Below, piece after piece: positions 13,300 to 64,000 of a stretch of DNA of 64,000 bases. The stretch lies in assembly GCF_003334815.1 (NCBI RefSeq), contig NZ_QOWO01000001.1; one strand, given 5' to 3'. The number at the start of each line of letters is the position of its first letter. Within the stretch, counting starts at the first letter, position 1. Below the pieces are notes generated by a model. The model did not search any database, was not told where the DNA came from, and worked only from the letters and a program-made list of their open reading frames with translations. The position numbers and the translations under genes are program-made. Source of the stretch: Escherichia coli (GTDB lineage: Bacteria > Pseudomonadota > Gammaproteobacteria > Enterobacterales > Enterobacteriaceae).

Positions 13300-13485
13300 A
13301 ATACCCGATCTTCTGCGCATCCTCGCGACTAATGACAACCCTAACCCAGCTCTATGTGGGTAAAGCCTCTCATTAGCCGCGCGAACCTCTGCAACGGAAG
13401 ATCATTCATAGCAACAATACATTAGTTTCCAGTGAATTGCTGCCGTCAGCTTGAAAAAAGGGGCCACTCAGGCCCCCTTTTCTGA
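13300..13485 (+). ncRNA. sraG: Probable SraG (PsrO) sRNA, antisense to the pnp leader; boundaries approximate
   Basis: Placed from recall of an sRNA in the rpsO-pnp intergenic region opposite pnp; the shared hairpin at 13454-13482 could terminate a plus-strand transcript. Exact ends not determinable here. Confidence 0.3.
13454..13482 (-). terminator. rpsO Rho-independent terminator (hairpin usable on both strands)
   Basis: Minus strand AGGGGGCC-TGAGT-GGCCCCT followed by TTTTTT, directly after rpsO stop. Confidence 0.85.
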
Positions 13486-13497
13486 AACTCGCAAGAA

Positions 13498-13863
<366 letters not shown>

Positions 13864-15337: not shown

Positions 15338-15405
15338 GACCTGATAAGACGCGCCAGCGTCACATCAGGCAATCCATGCCGGATGCAGCGTAAACGCCTT
15401 ATCCC
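15338..15405. repeat. Pair of REP elements downstream of infB
   Basis: GACCTGATAAGACGCGCCAGCGTCACATCAGGC and GCCGGATGCAGCGTAAACGCCTTATCC. Confidence 0.7.
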
Positions 15406-15424
15406 GCATGGAACCCTAAAAACC

Positions 15425-18097
15425 TTAAGCAATGGTACGTTGGATCTCGATGATTTCGAATACTTCGATCACATCGCCAGTGCGGACGTCGTTGTAGTTC
15501 TTAACGCCGATACCACATTCCATACCGTTACGGACTTCGTTAACGTCATCTTTGAAGCGGCGCAGGGACTCCAGCTCGCCTTCGTAGATAACCACGTTGT
15601 CACGCAGAACGCGGATCGGGTTGTGACGTTTAACCACACCTTCGGTAACCATACAGCCTGCGATGGCACCAAATTTCGGCGATTTGAACACGTCACGAAC
15701 TTCCGCCAGACCGATAATCTGCTGTTTCAGTTCCGGAGACAGCATACCGCTCATCGCCGCTTTCACTTCGTCAATCAGGTTATAGATGACGGAGTAGTAA
15801 CGCAGATCCAGGCTTTCCGCTTCAATCACTTTACGTGCAGAGGCATCAGCACGTACGTTAAAGCCAACCAGGATGGCGTTGGACGCCGCAGCCAGGGTGG
15901 CGTCGGTTTCGGTGATACCACCTACGCCAGAACCGATGATCTTCACTTTAACTTCGTCAGTAGACAGTTTCAGCAAGGAGTCGGAGATCGCTTCGACAGA
16001 ACCCTGTACGTCTGCCTTCAGGACGATATTCACTTCGTGAACTTCGCCTTCGGTCATGTTGGCGAACATGTTCTCGAGTTTAGATTTCTGCTGACGCGCC
16101 AGTTTAACTTCGCGGAATTTACCCTGACGATAGAGTGCAACTTCACGCGCTTTCTTCTCGTCACGTACAACGGTAACTTCATCACCCGCAGCCGGTACGC
16201 CGGACAGGCCGAGGATTTCCACCGGAATGGACGGACCCGCTTCCAGCACTTCCTGACCCAGTTCGTTACGCATCGCACGAACACGACCGTATTCGAAGCC
16301 ACACAGAACGATATCGCCCTTGTGCAGAGTACCTTCACGTACCAGAACGGTAGCAACCGGACCACGACCTTTATCGAGGAAGGATTCGATAACCGCACCG
16401 CTCGCCATACCTTTACGTACCGCTTTCAGCTCCAGAACTTCCGCCTGCAGCAGGATAGCGTCCAGCAGTTCATCGATACCGGTACCCGCTTTCGCAGATA
16501 CGTGTACGAACTGGCTTTCACCGCCCCACTCTTCCGGCAGGATGCCGTACTGGGAGAGTTCGTTCTTAACGCGATCCGGATCAGCTTCTGGTTTATCGAT
16601 CTTGTTCACTGCAACCACCACCGGTACCTGCGCCGCTTTCGCGTGCTGGATTGCTTCGATGGTCTGCGGCATCACACCGTCGTCGGCAGCAACAACCAGG
16701 ACTACGATGTCCGTTGCCTGCGCACCACGAGCACGCATTGAAGTAAACGCGGCGTGCCCCGGGGTGTCCAGGAAGGTGATCATGCCGTTTTCAGTTTCAA
16801 CGTGGTATGCACCAATGTGCTGGGTAATGCCGCCCGCTTCGCCAGAGGCCACTTTCGTTGAACGAATGTAGTCCAGCAGAGAGGTTTTACCGTGGTCAAC
16901 GTGACCCATGATGGTCACAACCGGCGCGCGCGGTTCAGCCGCAGCACCCGTGTCACGGTCGCTCATTACCGCCTCTTCCAGCTCGTTTTCACGACGCAGG
17001 ATAACTTTATGGCCCATCTCTTCAGCAACCAGCTGTGCGGTTTCCTGATCGATAACCTGGTTGATGGTTGCCATTGCGCCCAGTTTCATCATCGCTTTGA
17101 TGACCTGAGAGCCTTTAACCGCCATCTTGTTCGCCAGTTCGCCAACGGTGATAGTTTCGCCGATCACAACGTCACGGTTAACGGCCTGAGCAGGCTTCTG
17201 GAAGCCTTGCTGCAGCGAAGAACCTTTACGTTTTCCGCCTTTACCGCCACGTACTGCTGCGCGTGCTTCTTCACGATCAGCTTTTGATTCAGCGTGTTTG
17301 TTGCCTTTCTTCGGACGCGCTGCTTTCGCGTTACGACCACGGCCACGGCCGCCTTCGACTTCACGATCGCTTTCGTCTTCTGCCTGGCGAGCATGTTGAG
17401 AAGTAGTGACGTGATAATCGCTGGAATCTTCAGTCGGTTCCGCGTTATCAGTCCATTTGTTTTCTTCCGCCATACGACGTGCTTCTTCAGCAACGCGACG
17501 TGCTTCTTCTTCGAGTTTACGACGCGCTTCTTCTTCAGCTTTACGCTTGAGCTCTGCAGCTTCCTGCTCACGGCGGGCTTTTTCAGCCTGGGCGTTTTTA
17601 GTCATATCGTCTTGTTGATTGCTCACTTTGTCTTTTTCCGCAGCTTCACGTTTCGCTTGTTCAGCAGCTTCACGCTTAGCTTGTTCTGCGGCCTCACGTT
17701 CAGCTTTTTGTTGCGCCTCGCGTTTAGCCGATTCTTCTGCCTCACGACGGGCTTGCTCTTCCGCTTCACGCTGCGCTTGCTCTTCCGCTGCAAGGCGTTC
17801 AGCCTCTTGCGGATCGCGTTTCACAAAGGTGCGTTTCTTGCGGACTTCGATTTGTACCGATTTGCTTTTTCCACCGGTACCAGGAATGTTAAGGGTGCTG
17901 CGTGTTTTACGTTGCAGCGTCAATTTGTCCGGGCCTGAATTTTTCTGATTCAGGTGGTCAATCAAAGTCTGTTTCTCTTGTGCAGACACAGAGTCGTCAG
18001 CAGACTTCCGGATACCTGCATCAGCAAATTGCTGTACCAGGCGTTCCACGGAGGTCTGTCGCTCTGCGGCCAGCGTTTTAATCGTTACATCTGTCAT
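15425..18097 (-). CDS. infB: Translation initiation factor IF-2 (alpha form; internal in-frame starts for beta at GTG 17624-17626 and gamma at ATG 17603-17605)
   Basis: ORF track 890 aa; G-domain motifs [17 protein letters not shown]; internal starts at codons Val158 and Met165 checked against sequence. Confidence 0.97.
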
Positions 18098-20089: not shown

Positions 20090-20145
20090 GCCCACCCCCA
20101 AGACATAAAAAAAGGGCCTAAAGCCCAGTTATTCTGTAGTCAGAT

Positions 20146-20171
20146 AACAAAAAACCCCGATAAATCGGGGC
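20146..20171 (-). terminator. Rho-independent terminator/attenuator between metY and rimP
   Basis: Minus strand GCCCCGAT-tt-ATCGGGG followed by TTTTTTGT; a second weaker GC hairpin plus T7 lies at 20107-20126. Confidence 0.7.
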
Positions 20172-20295
20172 TTTATATAACTGAACCCTATAACCGCAAC
20201 TGCGGTCTGGAGCACTTTCCAGAAGGATTTTTTCAAATCCCACTACGAAGGCCGAAGTCTTCACAGTATATTTGAAAAAGGACTCTAAGGGAAAG

Positions 20296-20372
<77 letters not shown>

Positions 20373-24154: not shown

Positions 24155-24241
24155 TGGTACCGAGGACGGGACTTGAACCCGTAAGCCCTATTGGGCACTA
24201 CCACCTCAAGGTAGCGTGTCTACCAATTCCACCACCTCGGC
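24155..24241 (-). tRNA. leuU: tRNA-Leu (GAG anticodon)
   Basis: Reverse complement reads GCCGAGGTGGTGGAATTGGTAGACACGCTACCTTGAGGTGGTAGTGCCCAATAGGGCTTACGGGTTCAAGTCCCGTCCTCGGTACCA, 87 nt. Confidence 0.95.
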
Positions 24242-30892: not shown

Positions 30893-30926
30893 AAAAAAAT
30901 ACCGACCCGGGTACAAGTCCCAGGTC
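30893..30926 (-). terminator. graL: Hairpin plus U-run in the greA leader (probable terminator generating GraL short transcripts)
   Basis: Minus strand GACCTGGG-ACTTGTA-CCCGGGTC then GGTA and TTTTTTT, about 95-130 nt upstream of greA ATG. GraL assignment from recall. Confidence 0.5.
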
Positions 30927-31045
30927 AGCTACAATTCACATTTTGATAGTCATTTTACCCTGAAGTTCCCGAAGGGTCATCGTTTACTTTATAGGGCGTT
31001 GCGCCGTAGTATGACGGCTCGATTCCAGGTTGTTAGCGCGAGATT

Positions 31046-52659: not shown

Positions 52660-52780
52660 GTGCGGCCTGAAAAACAGTGCTGTGCCCTTGTAACTCATCA
52701 TAATAATTTACGGCGCAGCCAAGATTTCCCTGGTGTTGGCGCAGTATTCGCGCACCCCGGTCTAGCCGGGGTCATTTTTT
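52660..52780 (+). ncRNA. arcZ: ArcZ (RyhA/SraH) Hfq-dependent sRNA, convergent with arcB
   Basis: Sequence GTGCGGCCTGAAAAACAGTGCTGTGCCC...GCGCACCCCGGTCTAGCCGGGGTCATTTTTT matches recalled ArcZ (121 nt) with terminal hairpin CCCCGGTCTAGCCGGGG plus T6; 3' end overlaps arcB stop. Confidence 0.9.
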
Positions 52781-55203: not shown

Positions 55204-56133
55204 CTACTCCGTTGGAGGTAGCCACGGACGTCCCAGCGCCGATCCCTGTACGCCATGTTCATTCAGATAGCGATCCAGCTCGACCATTCCCGTCCATCGA
55301 TTTTCGCACCACAGCGGAGCAAGCAGCGTCGGGCGACGGGCGCTGGCGGAAATGCGGTGGTAGATCACTTCCGGTGGCGTATGGCGAATCATTTCTCCGG
55401 CAGTGAGCGTGTAATCCTCCAGTTCAATACCGTTCAAACGCCCCGCTTCCCAGGCTTTCGCCATAATGCTGCCTTTCACAATATGCAGCGGATGCAGCTT
55501 TATGCCGTCCACGCCGGTTTCAACCACTCGCTCCAGCGTTTGCAAACATTCAGCCTGCCCTTCGCCAGGCAGGCCGACAATTAAGTGGGAACACACCTTC
55601 AGCCCGCGCTGACGTGCCAGCTGGGTTGTACGCTGATAACAGGCAAAATCATGGCCGCGGTTGATGCGATGCAGTGTTTTGTCGTGGGCGGTTTGTAGCC
55701 CCAGCTCCAGCCACACTTCGTAACCCTGGTCCTTATATTCGCAAAGCAGATCCAGCACCGCATCCGGCACGCAGTCCGGGCGGGTACCCACACACAAACC
55801 GACAATATTGGCCTGGCTCACCGCCTGCTGATACATAGAACGCAGCACCTGAACTTCCGCAAAGGTGCTGGTATACGCCTGAAAGTAGGCCAGATAGCGT
55901 TTAGCGCGGTTAACTAAATTCGCCTGGTGCGCCAGTTGCTCGGCAATGGAACGATGCTGCTGCGCTTCATCGGCAAACGAGGCAACATTACAGAATGTGC
56001 AGCCACCACGCCCGATGGTACCGTCACGGTTAGGGCAGCTAAAACCGCCGTGCAGCGTCAGCTTATGCACCTTTTGCCCATAACGACGGGTGAGATCACC
56101 ACCAAACATATTGACTAATTTCTGTAACTGCAT
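55204..56133 (-). CDS. yhcC: Radical SAM protein YhcC
   Basis: ORF track 55204..56166; start trimmed to MQLQKLVNMFGG (309 aa); Cys motif CPNRDGTIGRGGCTFC. Confidence 0.9.
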   Translation of the reverse strand: MQLQKLVNMFGGDLTRRYGQKVHKLTLHGGFSCPNRDGTIGRGGCTFCNVASFADEAQQHRSIAEQLAHQANLVNRAKRYLAYFQAYTSTFAEVQVLRSMYQQAVSQANIVGLCVGTRPDCVPDAVLDLLCEYKDQGYEVWLELGLQTAHDKTLHRINRGHDFACYQRTTQLARQRGLKVCSHLIVGLPGEGQAECLQTLERVVETGVDGIKLHPLHIVKGSIMAKAWEAGRLNGIELEDYTLTAGEMIRHTPPEVIYHRISASARRPTLLAPLWCENRWTGMVELDRYLNEHGVQGSALGRPWLPPTE

Positions 56134-56807
56134 AATCTGATAGACCGCGCCTTGAAAAGAGGCCAAAGCCTGCCATTTTTAGCTCAATTCGGCGATGACC
56201 TGGATCAATCGTCCCGGCCTGCTTTTATCAACTGCATAATCAATCAAAATTACCGAAATTTCATGCATAATCACATAAATCACTTTTGCTTATCTTGTGT
56301 CAGATTTTTTTATCTCCTGATGGATTTTAGGCAAAAACAGTAGCATGAAACGTCATTACCAATTAAGGCAGTATAAAATGCTGGTTTTGTCGTCAGTTCA
56401 AGGCAGGATAAGGGTTAACACACCTTTATGACAGTCAGGAATTGACTGTTTCTCTAACGACTTCCCTTTTAGCCTTAAAGATAAAATCCATTTTAATTTC
56501 AGTCATTTAATAAAGAATTTTGCGCTAAAGCACATTTCTGTACCAATAAGCTTGCCATTTGACCTGTATCAGCTTTCCCGATAAGTTGGAAATCCGCTGG
56601 AAGCTTTCTGGATGAGCAGCCTGCTCATCATATTTATGCAGTAATTGAGATCCCCTCTTCACCGTATTAACCGATGCGAAAAGGACAACAAGGGGGCGAA
56701 TGCGAGGCGCGCGTATGACACGCAAACCCCGTCGCCACGCTCTTTCTGTGCCCGTGCGCAGCGGTTCGGAAGTGGGGTTCCCGCAGAGCCTGGGGGAGGT
56801 TCACGAT

Positions 56808-59800
56808 ATGTTGTACGATAAATCCCTTGAGAGGGATAACTGTGGTTTCGGCCTGATCGCCCACATAGAAGGCGAACCTAGCCACAAGGTAGTGCGTACT
56901 GCAATACACGCACTGGCCCGCATGCAGCACCGTGGCGCGATTCTCGCCGATGGTAAAACCGGCGACGGTTGCGGCTTGCTGTTACAAAAACCGGATCGCT
57001 TTTTTCGCATCGTTGCGCAGGAGCGCGGCTGGCGTTTAGCAAAAAACTACGCTGTCGGGATGCTCTTCCTGAATAAAGATCCTGAACTCGCCGCTGCCGC
57101 ACGCCGCATCGTTGAAGAAGAACTGCAACGCGAAACCTTGTCGATTGTGGGCTGGCGTGATGTCCCCACTAACGAAGGCGTGCTGGGTGAAATCGCCCTC
57201 TCCTCTCTGCCACGCATTGAGCAAATTTTTGTGAACGCCCCGGCAGGCTGGCGTCCACGCGATATGGAGCGCCGTCTGTTTATCGCCCGCCGCCGCATTG
57301 AAAAGCGTCTCGAAGCCGACAAAGACTTCTACGTCTGTAGCCTGTCGAATCTGGTGAACATCTATAAAGGTCTGTGTATGCCGACGGATCTGCCGCGCTT
57401 TTATCTGGATCTTGCGGACCTGCGTCTGGAATCGGCCATTTGCCTGTTCCACCAGCGCTTCTCCACTAACACCGTACCGCGCTGGCCGCTGGCGCAACCG
57501 TTCCGCTATCTGGCGCATAACGGTGAAATCAACACCATCACCGGTAACCGCCAATGGGCGCGTGCGCGTACTTATAAATTCCAGACACCGCTTATCCCTG
57601 ACCTGCACGACGCCGCACCGTTCGTCAACGAAACCGGCTCTGACTCCAGTTCGATGGATAACATGCTGGAACTGCTGCTGGCAGGCGGGATGGATATCAT
57701 CCGCGCCATGCGTCTATTAGTACCACCCGCCTGGCAGAACAACCCGGATATGGACCCGGAACTGCGTGCCTTCTTTGACTTTAACTCCATGCATATGGAG
57801 CCGTGGGATGGCCCGGCGGGCATCGTGATGTCCGACGGTCGTTTTGCCGCCTGTAACCTCGACCGTAACGGTCTGCGTCCGGCGCGCTACGTCATCACCA
57901 AAGATAAGCTCATCACCTGCGCCTCTGAAGTCGGTATCTGGGATTACCAGCCTGACGAAGTGGTCGAAAAAGGCCGCGTCGGGCCAGGCGAACTGATGGT
58001 TATCGACACCCGCAGTGGGCGTATTCTGCACTCGGCAGAAACCGATGACGATCTGAAAAGCCGCCATCCATATAAAGAGTGGATGGAGAAAAACGTCCGC
58101 CGACTGGTACCGTTTGAAGATCTGCCCGATGAAGAAGTGGGTAGCCGCGAACTGGACGACGACACGCTTGCCAGCTACCAGAAACAGTTTAACTACAGCG
58201 CGGAAGAGCTGGACTCCGTAATTCGCGTACTGGGCGAAAACGGTCAGGAAGCGGTCGGTTCGATGGGCGATGATACCCCATTCGCCGTGCTCTCCAGTCA
58301 GCCGCGCATTATTTACGACTACTTCCGCCAGCAGTTTGCCCAGGTGACTAACCCGCCAATCGACCCGCTGCGTGAAGCGCATGTTATGTCGCTCGCCACC
58401 AGTATCGGTCGTGAAATGAACGTCTTTTGCGAAGCAGAGGGCCAGGCGCACCGTTTAAGCTTTAAATCGCCGATTCTGCTCTACTCCGATTTCAAACAGC
58501 TCACGACGATGAAAGAGGAGCACTACCGCGCAGATACGCTGGATATCACCTTTGACGTCACTAAAACCACGCTCGAAGCGACAGTCAAAGAGCTGTGCGA
58601 CAAAGCCGAAAAAATGGTACGTAGCGGCACCGTGCTGCTGGTGCTCTCCGACCGGAATATCGCTAAAGATCGCCTGCCGGTTCCAGCCCCGATGGCGGTT
58701 GGCGCGATCCAGACCCGTCTGGTCGATCAAAGCCTGCGTTGCGATGCCAACATCATCGTCGAAACCGCCAGCGCCCGCGATCCGCACCACTTCGCCGTGT
58801 TGCTGGGCTTCGGCGCGACGGCTATTTATCCATACCTTGCCTATGAAACGCTGGGCCGCCTGGTAGACACCCATGCGATTGCCAAAGATTATCGTACCGT
58901 GATGCTCAACTACCGTAACGGCATCAACAAAGGCTTGTACAAAATCATGTCCAAAATGGGCATCTCCACCATCGCCTCTTACCGCTGCTCGAAACTGTTT
59001 GAAGCGGTCGGTCTACACGATGATGTAGTGGGCCTGTGCTTCCAGGGGGCGGTCAGCCGCATTGGTGGAGCAAGCTTTGAAGACTTCCAGCAGGATCTGC
59101 TGAATCTGTCGAAACGTGCCTGGCTGGCGCGTAAGCCCATCAGCCAGGGCGGTCTGCTGAAATACGTCCACGGCGGCGAATACCACGCCTACAACCCGGA
59201 CGTGGTGCGCACGCTGCAACAAGCGGTACAAAGCGGCGAGTACAGCGACTATCAGGAATACGCGAAGCTGGTTAATGAGCGTCCGGCAACCACGCTGCGC
59301 GATCTGCTGGCAATTACGCCGGGTGAAAACGCGGTCAACATTGCTGATGTTGAACCGGCAAGCGAACTGTTTAAACGCTTTGATACCGCCGCGATGTCTA
59401 TCGGCGCGTTAAGCCCGGAAGCCCACGAGGCGCTGGCGGAAGCGATGAACAGCATCGGCGGTAATTCGAACTCCGGTGAAGGCGGCGAAGACCCGGCGCG
59501 CTACGGCACCAACAAAGTGTCGCGCATCAAGCAGGTGGCTTCCGGTCGCTTTGGGGTTACTCCGGCGTATCTGGTCAATGCCGACGTCATTCAGATTAAA
59601 GTCGCCCAGGGCGCGAAGCCAGGCGAAGGCGGTCAGTTGCCGGGTGATAAAGTCACGCCTTACATCGCCAAACTGCGCTATTCGGTGCCCGGAGTGACGC
59701 TGATCTCCCCGCCGCCGCACCACGATATCTACTCTATCGAGGACTTAGCGCAGCTCATTTTCGACCTCAAGCAGGTTAACCCGAAAGCGATGATCTCCGT

Positions 59801-61268
59801 GAAGCTGGTTTCCGAACCGGGAGTAGGCACCATCGCGACTGGCGTGGCAAAAGCTTATGCGGACTTGATCACCATCGCAGGCTATGACGGCGGCACCGGC
59901 GCAAGTCCGCTTTCATCGGTGAAATACGCAGGCTGTCCGTGGGAGCTGGGGCTTGTTGAAACCCAGCAGGCGCTGGTTGCTAACGGCTTGCGTCACAAGA
60001 TCCGTTTGCAGGTCGATGGCGGCCTGAAAACGGGTGTCGATATCATCAAGGCGGCGATTCTCGGCGCAGAAAGCTTCGGCTTCGGCACTGGCCCGATGGT
60101 GGCGCTCGGCTGTAAATATCTACGTATTTGCCATCTGAACAACTGCGCAACGGGTGTAGCAACTCAGGATGACAAACTGCGTAAGAACCACTATCACGGC
60201 CTGCCATTCAAGGTGACGAATTACTTTGAGTTTATCGCCCGTGAAACCCGCGAGCTGATGGCACAGCTTGGCGTAACACGTCTGGTGGATCTGATTGGTC
60301 GCACCGACCTGCTGAAAGAGCTGGACGGTTTCACCGCCAAACAGCAGAAGCTGGCGCTGTCGAAGCTGCTGGAGACTGCCGAACCGCATCCAGGTAAGGC
60401 ACTCTACTGCACCGAAAACAACCCGCCGTTTGATAACGGCCTGCTGAACGCGCAGTTGCTGCAACAGGCGAAACCGTTTGTCGATGAGCGCCAGAGCAAA
60501 ACCTTCTGGTTCGATATTCGCAACACCGACCGTTCTGTCGGCGCGTCGCTTTCAGGCTATATCGCCCAGACGCACGGCGATCAGGGGCTGGCAGCCGATC
60601 CTATCAAAGCGTACTTCAACGGCACCGCAGGCCAGAGCTTCGGCGTGTGGAACGCGGGCGGCGTGGAACTGTACCTGACCGGTGATGCCAACGACTATGT
60701 CGGTAAAGGCATGGCGGGCGGCTTAATCGCCATTCGTCCTCCGGTTGGTTCCGCCTTCCGCAGCCATGAAGCAAGCATTATCGGCAACACCTGCCTGTAT
60801 GGCGCGACCGGTGGTCGTCTGTATGCCGCAGGCCGCGCGGGTGAACGTTTCGGCGTGCGTAACTCCGGTGCTATCACCGTGGTAGAAGGCATTGGCGACA
60901 ACGGTTGTGAATATATGACGGGTGGTATCGTCTGCATTCTGGGTAAAACCGGCGTTAACTTCGGTGCGGGCATGACCGGCGGTTTCGCTTACGTTCTCGA
61001 TGAAAGCGGCGATTTCCGCAAACGCGTTAACCCGGAACTGGTCGAGGTCTTAAGCGTTGACGCTCTGGCGATCCATGAAGAGCATCTGCGTGGTCTTATC
61101 ACCGAGCATGTGCAGCATACCGGCTCTCAGCGCGGTGAAGAGATTCTGGCGAACTGGTCAACCTTCGCCACTAAATTTGCGCTGGTTAAACCGAAGTCCA
61201 GTGATGTAAAAGCACTGCTGGGTCACCGTAGTCGTAGCGCAGCTGAGTTGCGCGTGCAGGCGCAGTAA
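56808..61268 (+). CDS. gltB: Glutamate synthase (NADPH) large subunit
   Basis: ORF track 56700..61268 (1522 aa); start set to Met37 [15 protein letters not shown] to match 1486 aa (an in-frame Met at 56715 would give 1517 aa); Ntn amidotransferase Cys follows the propeptide. Confidence 0.93.
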
Positions 61269-62699
<1,431 letters not shown>

Positions 62700-62714
62700 G
62701 CGAGGTAACAATGA

Positions 62715-62739
62715 ATTCGCCAGACTGTGTCTGGCGAAT
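62715..62739 (+). terminator. Strong hairpin immediately downstream of gltD (candidate terminator/attenuator before gltF)
   Basis: Perfect 11-bp stem ATTCGCCAGAC-tgt-GTCTGGCGAAT starting 16 nt after gltD stop; weak U-tract. Confidence 0.5.
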
Positions 62740-63258
62740 CAAATTACTGACGAAGTGCGCGTTGTTTTCTGGCAAATGCGGCATGAGCGTTTGACCTTTC
62801 CTATAATAGGGATAATTTTCAATAAATTGTGCTTTGTTCACCAAGTCTGATGAGTGAAGCACATCAAGCAATTTCTCATTTACAATCCGTCTCAATTACT
62901 TGTTAACACCTCTGACAATACCGATTCTGCAAGCTATTCAGTCTTTTCATTCCATGTAAATTGTCTCGATATTAATATACAAAATATGAATATAAAAAAC
63001 CAATATATTATCCTTAATTATCTATATATTTTCCTATTTTTCAGCGCAAACATTCATGTAATGAATAATTGTCACCACAAACCACCTCACCAGCACCTTA
63101 TTATTCACATGATCGTAACTATAAAATTCATTAAATAAATACATCCCAGCAAGTTGGCTATTTCTGAACGAGTTATTTATTTACATTCACAAACAGATAT
63201 ATATACTGCTTCAGCTTTTTATTTTAAAAAATAAATTTGTTATTAAGGATATGTTCAT

Positions 63259-64000
63259 ATGTTTTTCAAAAAGAACCTCACAACAGCTGCTATTTGTGCA
63301 GCACTTTCTGTTGCAGCATTCAGTGCCATGGCAACAGATTCAACTGATACAGAATTAACTATCATCGGCGAGTATACCCCTGGTGCATGTACCCCAGTTG
63401 TTACGGGCGGCGGCATTGTTGACTATGGGAAACATCATAACAGTGCGCTGAATCCGACCGGTAAAAGTAATAAACTGGTTCAACTGGGCCGCAAAAACAG
63501 CACATTAAATATAACCTGCACAGCACCAACGCTAATTGCTGTAACCTCCAAGGATAACCGTCAGTCGACCATTGTAGCGTTAAACGACACATCCTATATT
63601 GAAAAAGCTTATGATACTCTCGTAGATATGAAGGGAACGAAAAACGCCTTTGGTTTAGGTTCTGCGCCTAATGGACAAAAAATTGGCGCTGCATCCATTG
63701 GTATTGACAGGTCTAATGGTGGGATTCACGCGGCGGACGATACAGGTGAAATTCCTGTCGACCTGATTCAAACTGACCACTGGTCAGCAGCGACCCCCAC
63801 ATGGAAAGCCTCATCTAATGGCGCATTCTGCTCGCTGACAAGTTGCTCAGCAATCGAGCGCGGTTATTCTGTTGCAAAAACAGGGGAACTGACACCTGTT
63901 GCCATTACAGCGGTCACCTTCCCGTTACTGATTGATGCTGCGGTAAATGACAATACTATTCTTGGTTCTGATGAAACGATCAAACTGGATGGTAACGTCA
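63259..64000 (+). CDS. gltF: Periplasmic protein GltF (fimbrial-like), C-terminally truncated by window end
   Basis: ATG at 63259 with SD AAGGA 9 nt upstream; frame open to window end; signal-peptide N-terminus MFFKKNLTTAAICAALSVAAFSAMA. Absent from ORF track because no stop in window. Confidence 0.85.
   Translation, partial: MFFKKNLTTAAICAALSVAAFSAMATDSTDTELTIIGEYTPGACTPVVTGGGIVDYGKHHNSALNPTGKSNKLVQLGRKNSTLNITCTAPTLIAVTSKDNRQSTIVALNDTSYIEKAYDTLVDMKGTKNAFGLGSAPNGQKIGAASIGIDRSNGGIHAADDTGEIPVDLIQTDHWSAATPTWKASSNGAFCSLTSCSAIERGYSVAKTGELTPVAITAVTFPLLIDAAVNDNTILGSDETIKLDGNV

What the first reader, a model, noticed from the sequence alone, without database searches (positions are those of the whole stretch)
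62700..63258. Long AT-rich gltD-gltF intergenic region with a strong hairpin after gltD
A perfect 11-bp stem (62715-62739) directly follows gltD, then about 500 bp of strongly AT-rich DNA precedes gltF, a signal-peptide protein of a fimbrial-like family. The composition contrasts with gltBD and suggests gltF is a separately regulated, possibly H-NS-silenced, later addition. The 94-aa AT-rich ORF at 62854..63138 is probably not a gene.
Basis: partly seen in the sequence, partly recalled or inferred. Interest (0 to 1): 0.3.

Follow-up and report, generated by a model that had tools for sequence, protein, structure and literature searches.

The report
gltD–gltF spacer: operon boundary with nuclease-gene palindrome
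The AT-rich gap after gltD is the ordinary, already known boundary between the glutamate synthase genes and a silent, optional fimbrial operon, but its hairpin belongs to an apparently undescribed DNA palindrome that YhcG/DUF1016 nuclease genes carry inside their coding sequence across many bacterial phyla.

Summary
A perfect 11-bp stem (62715-62739) lies 15 nt after the gltD stop, followed by 519 bp at 30.8% GC, the lowest in the window. gltF then starts, encoding a DUF1120 protein with a signal peptide.

gltF heads the accessory beta-class chaperone-usher operon gltF-yhcADEF, found in 1147 of 5426 complete E. coli genomes. In Enterobacter mori the operon converges on gltBD. Published Term-seq puts gltBD 3' ends at 62743 (4 nt past the stem) and 62866. 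A Rho-dependent termination region peaks inside gltF. The hairpin has no U-tract, so it probably protects the 3' end rather than terminating. H-NS binding is documented only 1.6 kb downstream. Gain versus loss of the operon is unresolved. The 94-aa ORF shows no sign of being a gene.

The hairpin is one copy of a palindrome (ATTC-NN-CAGAC-NNN-GTCTG-NN-GAAT) that also occurs inside and after yhcG. It marks the exact breakpoints of several rearrangements here. In 60 of 73 DUF1016 genes sampled without regard to it, a palindrome with at least 10 of 12 arm pairs occupies the same codon-phased site, while the peptide varies. Its function is unknown.

The parts
61281..62699 (+). gltD (glutamate synthase small subunit), the last core gene before the variable segment
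   Evidence: ORF of 472 aa; RefSeq annotation in near-identical genomes.
62715..62739 (.). PAL hairpin/palindrome: arms 62715-62725 and 62729-62739, loop TGT. An orphan copy of the yhcG/DUF1016 palindrome family, and the exact right-hand limit of homology with genomes that lack the fimbrial operon.
   Evidence: Sequence. Fold -22.6 kcal/mol. Matches ATTCNNCAGACNNNGTCTGNNGAAT. Homology with Nissle-type genomes ends at query base 90 = 62739.
62743..62743 (+). Experimentally mapped 'primary' gltD mRNA 3' end, 4 nt after the stem (MG1655 coordinate 3,360,660; M63 glucose)
   Evidence: Adams et al. 2021 Supplementary file 1. The 61-nt reported sequence is found exactly at window 62693-62753.
62828..62863 (+). 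Second, weaker stem-loop, with a mapped 'orphan' RNA 3' end at 62866 (MG1655 3,360,783). It has about twice the reads of the first end.
   Evidence: Fold -13.7 kcal/mol, z = -1.7. Term-seq rows. Coordinates checked.
62740..63258 (.). AT-rich spacer (30.8% GC), non-coding. Not alignable between operon alleles except at PAL and the promoter-like element.
62860..63180 (+). C-rich, G-poor untranslated RNA segment (for example C:G 22:7, 13:3 and 22:8 in 78-nt windows), a candidate Rho loading (rut) region
   Evidence: GC skew -0.46. Per-window counts. The function is inferred.
62854..63138 (+). 94-aa GTG-start ORF, judged not to be a gene
   Evidence: Not annotated by PGAP in any record fetched that carries this spacer. 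No Pfam, NCBIfam or PADLOC match. All 4 amino-acid-position differences between strains are non-synonymous. The region is absent from the diverged alleles. A mapped RNA 3' end lies inside it (62866).
63180..63207 (+). Sigma-70-like promoter candidate for gltF (TTTACA, 16 nt, TATACT; 10 of 12 matches)
   Evidence: Consensus scan. The same -35/-10 geometry (TTTACA-16-TACACT) is kept in the 61%-identity allele although the spacer sequence differs. No experimental start site was found.
63259..64000 (+). gltF 5' part (runs off the window): a DUF1120 putative fimbrial subunit with a signal peptide, first gene of gltF-yhcADEF. A Rho termination region peaks at 63390.
   Evidence: Pfam DUF1120 1.8e-45. 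Operon context. Rho score 4.1, p = 2e-16 at MG1655 3,361,307.

Best explanation
The 560-bp gap is the junction between the core gltBD operon and an optional, normally silent beta-class chaperone-usher fimbrial operon, gltF-yhcADEF.

Transcripts from gltB run through gltD and end in this gap. The stable hairpin at 62715-62739 defines and protects one mapped 3' end (62743), and a weaker hairpin defines a second (62866). The hairpin lacks a U-tract, so it is probably not where RNA polymerase stops. More likely Rho loads on the untranslated, C-rich, G-poor RNA of the spacer and stops transcription in the spacer or the gltF 5' region. Exonucleases would then trim the RNA back to the hairpins.

gltF has its own sigma-70-like promoter about 50 nt upstream of its start codon. 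It sits in AT-rich DNA of the type H-NS coats, so the fimbrial operon is regulated apart from gltBD.

The hairpin is also a DNA feature. It is an orphan copy of a 25-27-bp palindrome that the neighbouring nuclease gene yhcG (DUF1016 family) carries inside its coding sequence and just after its stop codon. Such palindromes are the exact breakpoints of insertions and deletions at this locus. The hairpin is therefore the recombination joint between core DNA and the variable segment, reused as an mRNA 3'-end structure.

Shown: the structure, the 3' ends, the Rho sensitivity, the accessory distribution, the palindrome family and the breakpoints. Inferred: Rho loading in the spacer, trimming to the hairpin, promoter use, H-NS coverage of the spacer, and how the palindromes cause breaks.
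For: Locus identity and accessory status:
- Annotation of near-identical genomes.
- Census of 5426 complete E. coli genomes: 1147 have gltD-hairpin-spacer-gltF, 947 have gltD-hairpin-nanQ, and 3141 have gltD followed directly by yhcG.
- Literature on the yhc beta-class locus, found only in phylogroup A.
- The flanking genes are 98-99% identical between alleles, but the operon proteins only 61-86%. The Enterobacter operon is convergent with gltBD.

Transcript ends:
- Term-seq 3' ends at 62743 (956 reads) and 62866 (1859 reads) in minimal medium.
- Rho termination region at 63390: -BCM 133 reads upstream and 42 downstream; +BCM 622 and 806; Rho score 4.1.
- No U-tract; the terminator scan does not call the hairpin.
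- C much greater than G across 62860-63180.
- The sister palindrome after yhcG is likewise read through, with Rho stopping transcripts about 400 nt beyond it.

Promoter and H-NS:
- Promoter-like element with conserved geometry in a 61% allele.
- H-NS-bound flag at yhcA/yhcD.

Palindrome family and breakpoints:
- Copies in yhcG and after it.
- Homology with genomes that lack the operon ends at 62739.
- Hybrid palindrome at a yhcG deletion joint in E. albertii.
- yhcG truncated at a palindrome edge in O104:H4.
- Internal yhcG deletion starting at a palindrome edge in another Escherichia lineage.
- 1, 2 or 3 tandem copies inside yhcG in different strains.
Against: - No direct test separates termination at the hairpin from trimming back to it.
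- The Rho data come from LB and the 3' ends from minimal medium.
- Some read-through into gltF may be real. The older literature (Castano et al. 1992, from memory) and RegulonDB treat gltBDF as one operon.
- No transcription start site for gltF was found in the sources I could read.
- H-NS occupancy of the spacer itself was not retrieved.
- One rare E. coli allele with the fimbrial operon has a different, unrelated hairpin after gltD, so the palindrome is not required for the arrangement.
- The breakpoints could reflect general fragility of any palindrome rather than anything specific to this family.
Confidence: 0.7

Rival explanations
1. Classical view: gltB, gltD and gltF form one operon. 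gltF is expressed mainly by read-through from the gltB promoter, and the hairpin only attenuates.
For: Same orientation. RegulonDB lists gltF with gltBD as Lrp targets, and papers still call it gltBDF. Two successive 3' ends show that the first hairpin is leaky.
Against: 3' ends and a Rho termination region lie between gltD and the body of gltF. gltF is absent from 79% of E. coli genomes that keep gltBD. Its operon partners are a chaperone and an usher. It is convergent with gltBD in Enterobacter. From memory, Goss et al. 2001 found no role for gltF in nitrogen regulation; that paper is not held.
Confidence: 0.1
2. The hairpin is a conventional Rho-independent terminator, and that is its whole function. 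Its resemblance to the yhcG palindromes is incidental.
For: A strong GC-containing stem with a mapped 3' end 4 nt downstream. In genomes without the operon the same palindrome sits alone between convergent gltD and nanQ, flanked by A/T runs, like a bidirectional terminator.
Against: The tail in this window is GAAUCAAAUUAC, with no U-run, and the scan does not call it. Twice as many 3' ends lie 123 nt further on. The sister palindrome is read through on the nan side. The match to the family pattern covers 18 specified bases with complementary free positions. The Nissle copy is 27/27 identical to the internal yhcG copy of other strains.
Confidence: 0.15
3. The palindrome family works at the RNA level. 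It would be an mRNA hairpin inside DUF1016 genes that controls translation or stability, with intergenic copies acting as RNA elements, rather than at the DNA level.
For: The intergenic copy does coincide with an RNA 3' end. The arms covary as in structured RNAs.
Against: On the coding strand, G/T-type mismatches (tolerated in RNA) are no more frequent than A/C-type: 21 vs 26 and 5 vs 7. The central triplet is strand-symmetric: AGT 20, ACT 20. No Rfam family matches. The palindromes coincide with DNA rearrangement breakpoints.
Confidence: 0.2
4. The 94-aa ORF (62854-63138) or another small ORF in the spacer encodes a real protein, and the spacer is not purely regulatory.
For: The ORF is open in all four K-type sequences compared.
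Against: No family match in Pfam, NCBIfam or PADLOC. Never annotated. GTG start, and I saw no Shine-Dalgarno-like sequence upstream of it. About 30% GC. All four differences between strains change the amino acid. No counterpart in the 61% and 78% alleles. An RNA 3' end maps 12 nt into it.
Confidence: 0.03

Closest known systems
[quoted passage not shown] 2010, as cited in PMC5216030)
   Same: This is that locus. gltF is the putative major subunit, followed by the chaperone YhcA, the usher YhcD, YhcE and YhcF. It is restricted to a minority of strains and considered cryptic.
   Different: Nothing differs for the operon itself. The papers I could read do not discuss the spacer, its hairpin or the locus polymorphism.
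Rho-dependent terminators whose RNA 3' ends are trimmed back to a protective stem-loop (Dar and Sorek 2018, from memory; Adams et al. 2021, PMC7815308)
   Same: A stable hairpin without a U-tract, a 3' end a few nt past the stem, C-rich G-poor untranslated RNA downstream, and a bicyclomycin-sensitive region further on.
   Different: Trimming versus true termination was not tested for this site. The hairpin here is a repeated DNA element, not a locally evolved stem.
REP/BIME extragenic palindromes and their RAYT transposases
   Same: Short palindromes in 3' untranslated regions that can stabilise upstream mRNA, associated with a gene for a DNA-cleaving enzyme, and found at rearrangement joints.
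   Different: No sequence similarity. One to a few sites per E. coli genome, all at one locus, against hundreds for REP. The associated gene is a PD-(D/E)XK nuclease, not a Y1 transposase. The main copy lies inside the coding sequence of that gene, in a fixed codon phase.
Rickettsia palindromic elements (RPE), selfish palindromic DNA inserted in frame in protein-coding genes (Ogata et al. 2000, from memory)
   Same: Palindromic units present in frame inside an ORF in variable number: 1, 2 or 3 units of 39 bp in yhcG.
   Different: RPEs are 100-150 bp, occur in many unrelated genes and are confined to Rickettsia. Here the unit is 25-39 bp, tied to one gene family at one homologous site, and found across many phyla.
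H-NS xenogeneic silencing of AT-rich accessory DNA with Rho co-operation
   Same: 30.8% GC spacer, accessory operon, an H-NS-bound flag within the operon, and de-repression by bicyclomycin.
   Different: H-NS occupancy over the spacer and de-repression in an hns mutant were not verified here.

Membership tests
Rho-independent (intrinsic) terminator | GC-rich stem-loop of 5 or more pairs | tested here: met
   11-bp perfect stem, 6 G-C pairs, -22.6 kcal/mol in 61-nt context.
Rho-independent (intrinsic) terminator | U-rich tract (at least 5 U in 8) directly after the stem | tested here: not met
   The tail is CAAATTACTG. The scan of 62300-63600 does not report this site.
Rho-independent (intrinsic) terminator | Factor-independent release of RNA at the site | not testable with these tools
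   Term-seq shows a 3' end at 62743 but cannot separate termination from trimming. More ends lie at 62866.
Rho-dependent termination zone | Untranslated C-rich, G-poor RNA upstream of the stop region | tested here: met
   GC skew -0.46. C:G of 22:7, 13:3 and 22:8 in 78-nt windows of 62860-63117. No credible ORF.
Rho-dependent termination zone | Read-through increases when Rho is inhibited | tested here: met
   Taken from the literature, not my own experiment. Rho score 4.1, p = 2e-16 at MG1655 3,361,307 = window 63390 (Adams 2021 Supplementary file 2).
Beta-class chaperone-usher fimbrial operon (yhc) | Secreted subunit gene followed by a PapD-like chaperone and a PapC-like usher | tested here: met
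   GltF matches DUF1120 at 1.8e-45 and has a signal-peptide-like N-terminus. yhcA chaperone and yhcD usher lie downstream in L001. PapD_N, Usher and PapC domains are found in the diverged alleles. Only the gltF 5' part lies inside the window.
H-NS-silenced accessory DNA | AT-rich relative to the host, and variably present among strains | tested here: met
   30.8% GC against 51.7% for the window. Present in 21% of genomes.
H-NS-silenced accessory DNA | H-NS occupancy in vivo and de-repression in an hns mutant | tested here: inconclusive
   Position 3,362,763 (yhcA/yhcD) is flagged H-NS-bound. No data were retrieved for the spacer. Expression in an hns mutant was not found.
REP/BIME elements | REP consensus and hundreds of dispersed copies per genome | tested here: not met
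   Different sequence. Median of one site per genome and at most 5 matching places per genome; every row listed lies in yhcG or unannotated DNA.
yhcG/DUF1016 palindrome family (defined here) | Match to ATTC-NN-CAGAC-NNN-GTCTG-NN-GAAT with complementary free positions | tested here: met
   Window 62715-62739 matches exactly, and its free positions GC/GC are complementary. It is 25/27 identical to the internal yhcG copy of O157:H7 and O104:H4 over the 27-bp unit.
yhcG/DUF1016 palindrome family (defined here) | Location at the homologous, codon-phased site of a DUF1016_N coding region | tested here: not met
   This copy is intergenic, with no ORF around it. It belongs with the orphan copies: 23 of 131 pattern matches had no DUF1016 homology in the locus.

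The most novel reading that the evidence does not exclude
The hairpin may be a footprint of a cis-acting DNA element of the YhcG/DUF1016 PD-(D/E)XK nucleases, which are a candidate anti-phage defence family (PADLOC PDC-S02). This gene family would keep, at a fixed codon-phased site inside its own coding sequence in many bacterial phyla, a perfect 25-29-bp palindrome that acts as a hairpin or cruciform substrate. Candidate users are the encoded nuclease, or host hairpin nucleases such as SbcCD. The result would be breakage and rejoining that duplicates the unit, deletes or moves the gene, and leaves orphan palindromes such as the one after gltD. Alternatively the element could control the gene's own expression.
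Probability: 0.3. Interest if true: 0.8.

Novelty: new variant of a known kind. Interest (0 to 1): 0.5.

Why it matters
For the feature as flagged, the result is housekeeping. 'gltBDF' should be treated as gltBD plus a separate, optional fimbrial operon, and the hairpin as a 3'-end structure of gltBD mRNA. This matters for operon annotation and for regulon models that still list gltF as an Lrp/nitrogen target.

The wider point is the palindrome. DUF1016/YhcG proteins are very common, sit in defence islands and type I restriction loci, and have no known function or solved structure. A DNA palindrome kept in their coding sequence across phyla is a concrete, testable handle on what these nucleases act on. 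Its arms covary while the peptide drifts, and its copies mark rearrangement joints. It would also be an unusual case of a nucleic-acid-level constraint overriding protein sequence within an ORF.

Tried and rejected
- Rfam: no match at E <= 1 in 61000-64000. Only sub-threshold microRNA-like noise over the yhcG palindromes. The whole-window scan gave only known RNAs elsewhere.
- REP-like dispersed repeat: rejected. The palindrome is confined to this locus in E. coli.
- Coding explanation for the palindrome: rejected. The free arm positions are Watson-Crick in 172 of 192 cases. 57 distinct peptides occur at the site, and synonymous recoding lowers pairing from 10.3 to 5.8 of 12.
- A general 'gene plus downstream palindrome' architecture: not found in 74 viral-contig loci. 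Palindromes outside the matched gene stretch there looked like ordinary terminators or, in three loci where the stored DNA ends shortly after the match, were copies of the gene's own palindrome misclassified by my generic bounds.
- H-NS data for the spacer: the Kahramanoglou 2011 supplements are not held. Text searches for gltF or yhcA with H-NS gave only one indirect hit.
- gltF start-site data: Thomason 2015 is not held. The Ettwiller 2016 supplements have no coordinates in the range.
- Goss et al. 2001 is not held.
- The 61% and 78% operon alleles were not found in any of the 5426 complete E. coli genomes.
- No literature on a yhcG or DUF1016 palindrome.
- No PDB relative of DUF1016 by sequence.
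- I first took the gltD-yhcG arrangement to be ancestral. I withdrew this after finding fimbrial-operon alleles at the same site in other lineages.
Full report
**1. Observation**

The window ends with E. coli gltB (56700-61268) and gltD (61281-62699).

- Fifteen nucleotides after the gltD stop codon lies a perfect inverted repeat: ATTCGCCAGAC (62715-62725), TGT, GTCTGGCGAAT (62729-62739).
- About 0.015 such stems are expected by chance in 64 kb. Only four palindromes with at least 10 of 12 pairs and a 3-nt spacer occur in the window; the other three look like ordinary terminator hairpins with flanking A and T runs.
- As RNA, the region folds at -22.6 kcal/mol, z = -3.9.
- The next 519 bp (62740-63258) are 30.8% GC, against 57% for gltB and 56% for gltD. 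This is the lowest value of any 519-bp stretch in the window.
- gltF starts at 63259 behind AAGGA. Its N-terminus looks like a Sec signal peptide, and it matches Pfam DUF1120 at 1.8e-45.

**2. What the locus is**

In a near-identical K-12-like genome the gene order is gltB, gltD, gltF, yhcA (chaperone), yhcD (usher), yhcE (split by IS5), yhcF (DUF1120), yhcG (PDDEXK nuclease), then convergent nanQ.

The literature already treats gltF-yhcADEF as the 'yhc' beta-class chaperone-usher locus. gltF is the putative structural subunit, the locus is restricted to phylogroup A, and it is considered cryptic in K-12 (PMC5216030).

Junction-spanning queries against 5426 complete E. coli genomes gave three main arrangements:

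| Type | Arrangement | Genomes |
|---|---|---|
| K (this window) | gltD-hairpin-spacer-gltF | 1147 (21%) |
| N | gltD-hairpin-nanQ, only 67 bp between the convergent genes | 947 (17%) |
| Y | gltD followed directly by the yhcG upstream region and yhcG, with no such hairpin after gltD | 3141 (58%) |

About 190 genomes fit none of the three.

**3. Where transcripts end**

These data come from the literature. The supplements of Adams et al. 2021 (eLife, PMC7815308) list, for MG1655 in M63 glucose:

- a 'primary' gltD 3' end at 3,360,660 (956 reads);
- an 'orphan' 3' end at 3,360,783 (1859 reads).

Both 61-nt reported sequences occur exactly in the window. They place the ends at 62743, 4 nt after the stem, and at 62866, just after a weaker hairpin at 62828-62863.

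Their map of Rho termination regions (LB, with and without bicyclomycin) has a peak at 3,361,307, which is window 63390, inside gltF. Reads upstream/downstream were 133/42 without the drug and 622/806 with it. The Rho score is 4.1, p = 2e-16.

- The hairpin is followed by CAAATTACTG, which is not a U-tract, and the terminator scan does not call it.
- The plus-strand RNA of 62860-63180 is strongly C-rich and G-poor, as Rho loading sites are.
- The sister palindrome after yhcG behaves alike. Minus-strand transcripts pass it and meet a Rho termination region about 400 nt further on, at 3,368,581.

I therefore read the hairpin as a 3'-end-defining, protective structure for gltBD mRNA. Rho would be the main terminator in the spacer and the gltF 5' region. 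Trimming back to the hairpin is inferred, not shown.

**4. gltF regulation**

- One sigma-70-like site stands out: TTTACA-16-TATACT at 63180-63207, a 10 of 12 match.
- In the 61%-identity allele of another Escherichia lineage the same geometry is kept (TTTACA-16-TACACT). The 16-nt spacer and the rest of the intergenic region have diverged beyond alignment.
- I found no experimental start site.
- H-NS: Fitzgerald et al. 2023 flag position 3,362,763 (yhcA/yhcD) as lying in an H-NS-bound region of the Kahramanoglou 2011 data. Data for the spacer itself were not available to me.

H-NS silencing therefore remains a well-motivated inference. The bicyclomycin de-repression supports it.

**5. The 94-aa ORF**

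It has no match in Pfam, NCBIfam or PADLOC. It is not annotated in any record fetched that carries this spacer. All four amino-acid-position differences among K-type strains are non-synonymous, and it has no counterpart in the other alleles. It is not a gene.

**6. Addition or loss?**

GltF homologues are few and confined to Enterobacteriaceae. Diverged operon alleles occupy the same site:

- one in other Escherichia lineages, with GltF 61% and YhcD 67% identical while gltB and gltD are 98-99% identical;
- one rare E. coli-like allele with GltF 78% identical;
- neither allele is present in the 5426 complete E. coli genomes.

In Enterobacter mori the operon lies between sspB and gltD and converges on gltBD. 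It cannot be part of a glt transcript there.

The module is clearly independent of gltBD and evolves or is exchanged much faster than its flanks. My data do not show whether K-type E. coli gained it or the other types lost it.

**7. The hairpin is a repeated element**

The same palindrome pattern (AATTC-NN-CAGAC-NNN-GTCTG-NN-GAATT) recurs downstream, outside the window:

- three times in tandem, 39 bp apart and in frame, inside K-12 yhcG;
- once just after the yhcG stop, before nanQ.

O157:H7 yhcG has one internal copy (349 aa against 375 aa). A cryptic-clade strain has two. The arms differ between copies but stay complementary.

The single palindrome of N-type strains is 27/27 identical to the internal copy of Y-type yhcG. 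It has the left flank of the K-type gltD copy and the right flank of the nanQ-side copy. Homology between K and N types therefore ends exactly at 62739.

Other rearrangements also end at these palindromes:

- E. albertii has lost the 3' two-thirds of yhcG, and the joint lies inside a hybrid palindrome.
- O104:H4-type strains have yhcG cut at the edge of the third copy, followed by foreign DNA.
- Another Escherichia lineage has an internal deletion of about 700 bp starting at a palindrome edge.

In E. coli the family appears confined to this locus: at most 5 matching places per genome, each site counting twice because the palindrome matches both strands, and every row listed lies in yhcG or unannotated DNA.

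**8. The palindrome beyond E. coli**

About 4 matches are expected by chance. The hits come from many phyla.

- 97 of 131 matches (setting aside one array) lie in YhcG-like ORFs at the same site. They read I-x-Q-T-x-S-x-E.
- The two unspecified arm positions are Watson-Crick in 172 of 192 cases, against 25% by chance. This links codon 2 to codon 7 by base complementarity rather than by any protein logic.
- 23 matches have no DUF1016 homology nearby. About half of these lie in gaps between ORFs of 100 aa or more, several just downstream of a gene or between convergent genes, like the gltD copy.

To remove the bias of a pattern search, I collected DUF1016 genes from viral contigs through motifs of the C-terminal nuclease domain only.

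- Of 73 unique genes, 60 have a palindrome with at least 10 of 12 pairs and a 3-nt spacer at the homologous site of the DUF1016_N region. In 57 of the 60 the codon phase is the same. Elsewhere in the genes the best value is typically 8-9.
- The arms differ completely between lineages (for example gccagac, gcgtccgc, tcgtatc, cgagac) and so do the peptides, with 57 distinct nonamers. Synonymous recoding lowers pairing from 10.3 to 5.8 of 12.
- On the coding strand, G/T-type mismatches (21) are not commoner than A/C-type (26). The central triplet is strand-symmetric (AGT 20, ACT 20) and is usually itself A-S-T. These points favour a DNA-level, strand-symmetric constraint over an mRNA hairpin.

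YhcG matches the PADLOC candidate defence family PDC-S02 at 2e-131. DUF1016 is known to sit in type I restriction and inversion-prone loci (PMC9881135). No PDB relative was found by sequence. I found no paper or Rfam family describing the palindrome.

**9. Mechanism: shown and inferred**

Shown:
- the structure;
- two in vivo RNA 3' ends;
- Rho sensitivity downstream;
- accessory status and independent orientation of the fimbrial operon;
- membership of the hairpin in a palindrome family centred on DUF1016 genes;
- coincidence of family members with rearrangement joints.

Inferred:
- Rho loads in the spacer, and RNA is trimmed back to the hairpins.
- The 63180-63207 element is the gltF promoter and is H-NS-repressed.
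- The palindromes cause the breaks, by hairpin or cruciform formation cut by SbcCD-type nucleases or by YhcG itself.
- The gltD copy is a scar of such an event that now also serves as an mRNA end.

**10. Comparison with known systems**

- The spacer behaves like many junctions between core genes and H-NS/Rho-silenced accessory operons.
- The hairpin behaves like the protective stem-loops at Rho-dependent 3' ends.
- It fails the U-tract test for an intrinsic terminator, and the sequence and copy-number tests for REP.
- The palindrome family resembles REP/RAYT (palindromes linked to a DNA-cleaving enzyme gene) and Rickettsia palindromic elements (in-frame palindromic units in ORFs). It differs from both in size, in enzyme family, in being tied to one homologous site of one gene family, and in phylogenetic breadth.

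**11. Verdict**

As flagged, the finding is real and correctly read in outline, but it is ordinary and largely already known. What raises it is that the 'strong hairpin' is an orphan member of a conserved, apparently undescribed DNA palindrome of DUF1016 nuclease genes. Its function I cannot establish.

**12. Limits**

- The unbiased sample comes from viral contigs only.
- The covariation counts are not phylogeny-corrected.
- The breakpoint cases are few, and some may share ancestry.
- The literature library lacks the older glt papers and most H-NS data sets.

Noticed in passing
window 63188-63196 (strain CFS3246, locus L206 847-1616): An IS1A copy is inserted in this strain with a 9-bp target duplication, exactly between the -35 and -10 hexamers of the predicted gltF promoter. 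It could kill the promoter or replace it with an IS-borne one.
   Followed up: partly
L001 16563-16667 and 17403-17429 (K-12-like yhcG, outside the window): Three in-frame tandem palindromes 39 bp apart lie inside yhcG, plus one after its stop codon. O157:H7 has one internal copy and a cryptic-clade strain has two. The extra 78 bp add 26 residues within the DUF1016_N domain.
   Followed up: yes
L082 2472-5348 (Rhodothermales MAG): An array of 36.9 tandem copies of a 78-bp unit (two 39-bp half-units, 76% matches), each carrying the same palindrome, lies directly next to a DUF1016 gene (1198-2361, minus strand). It is open in one frame for 1012 codons but looks like a satellite rather than a gene.
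   Followed up: partly
L011 3416-3482 (Escherichia albertii NBRC 107761): yhcG is reduced to its 5' third. The deletion joint is a hybrid palindrome whose left arm resembles an internal yhcG copy and whose right arm and flank are those of the nanQ-side copy.
   Followed up: yes
L211 9001-15594 (Enterobacter mori): A homologous gltF-yhcADEF-like operon (GltF 48% identical) lies between sspB and gltD and is convergent with gltBD. The nan genes are absent from this position.
   Followed up: partly
window 62828-62866: A second, weak stem-loop is followed by a Term-seq 'orphan' 3' end (MG1655 3,360,783) that carries about twice the reads of the end at the strong hairpin. The gltBD 3' UTR may therefore be about 165 nt long in a majority of transcripts.
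   Followed up: partly
L004 4160-4192 (O157:H7, Y-type): Strains without the palindrome after gltD have a different hairpin there (CAGCGCCG...CGGCGCTG) followed by a U-rich tail. This looks more like a conventional terminator for gltD.
   Followed up: no
L001 about 16660-17060 (MG1655 3,368,581, minus strand): Adams et al. list a Rho termination region antisense to yhcG. Transcripts leaving the nan operon apparently cross the palindrome after yhcG and are stopped by Rho inside yhcG.
   Followed up: no
window 13310-13481, 52660-52767, 30894-31015, 13711-13825, 20107-20207, 15338-15408: Known RNAs found by Rfam at gathering score: SraG, ArcZ, greA leader, S15 leader, rimP leader and naRNA4, plus two tRNAs (20299-20372, 24158-24241).
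   Followed up: no
window 56100-56600: A second AT-rich stretch (35-40% GC) lies upstream of gltB. From the literature (PMC1784095) it is the gltB promoter region, with Lrp, IHF, Crp and ArgR control.
   Followed up: no
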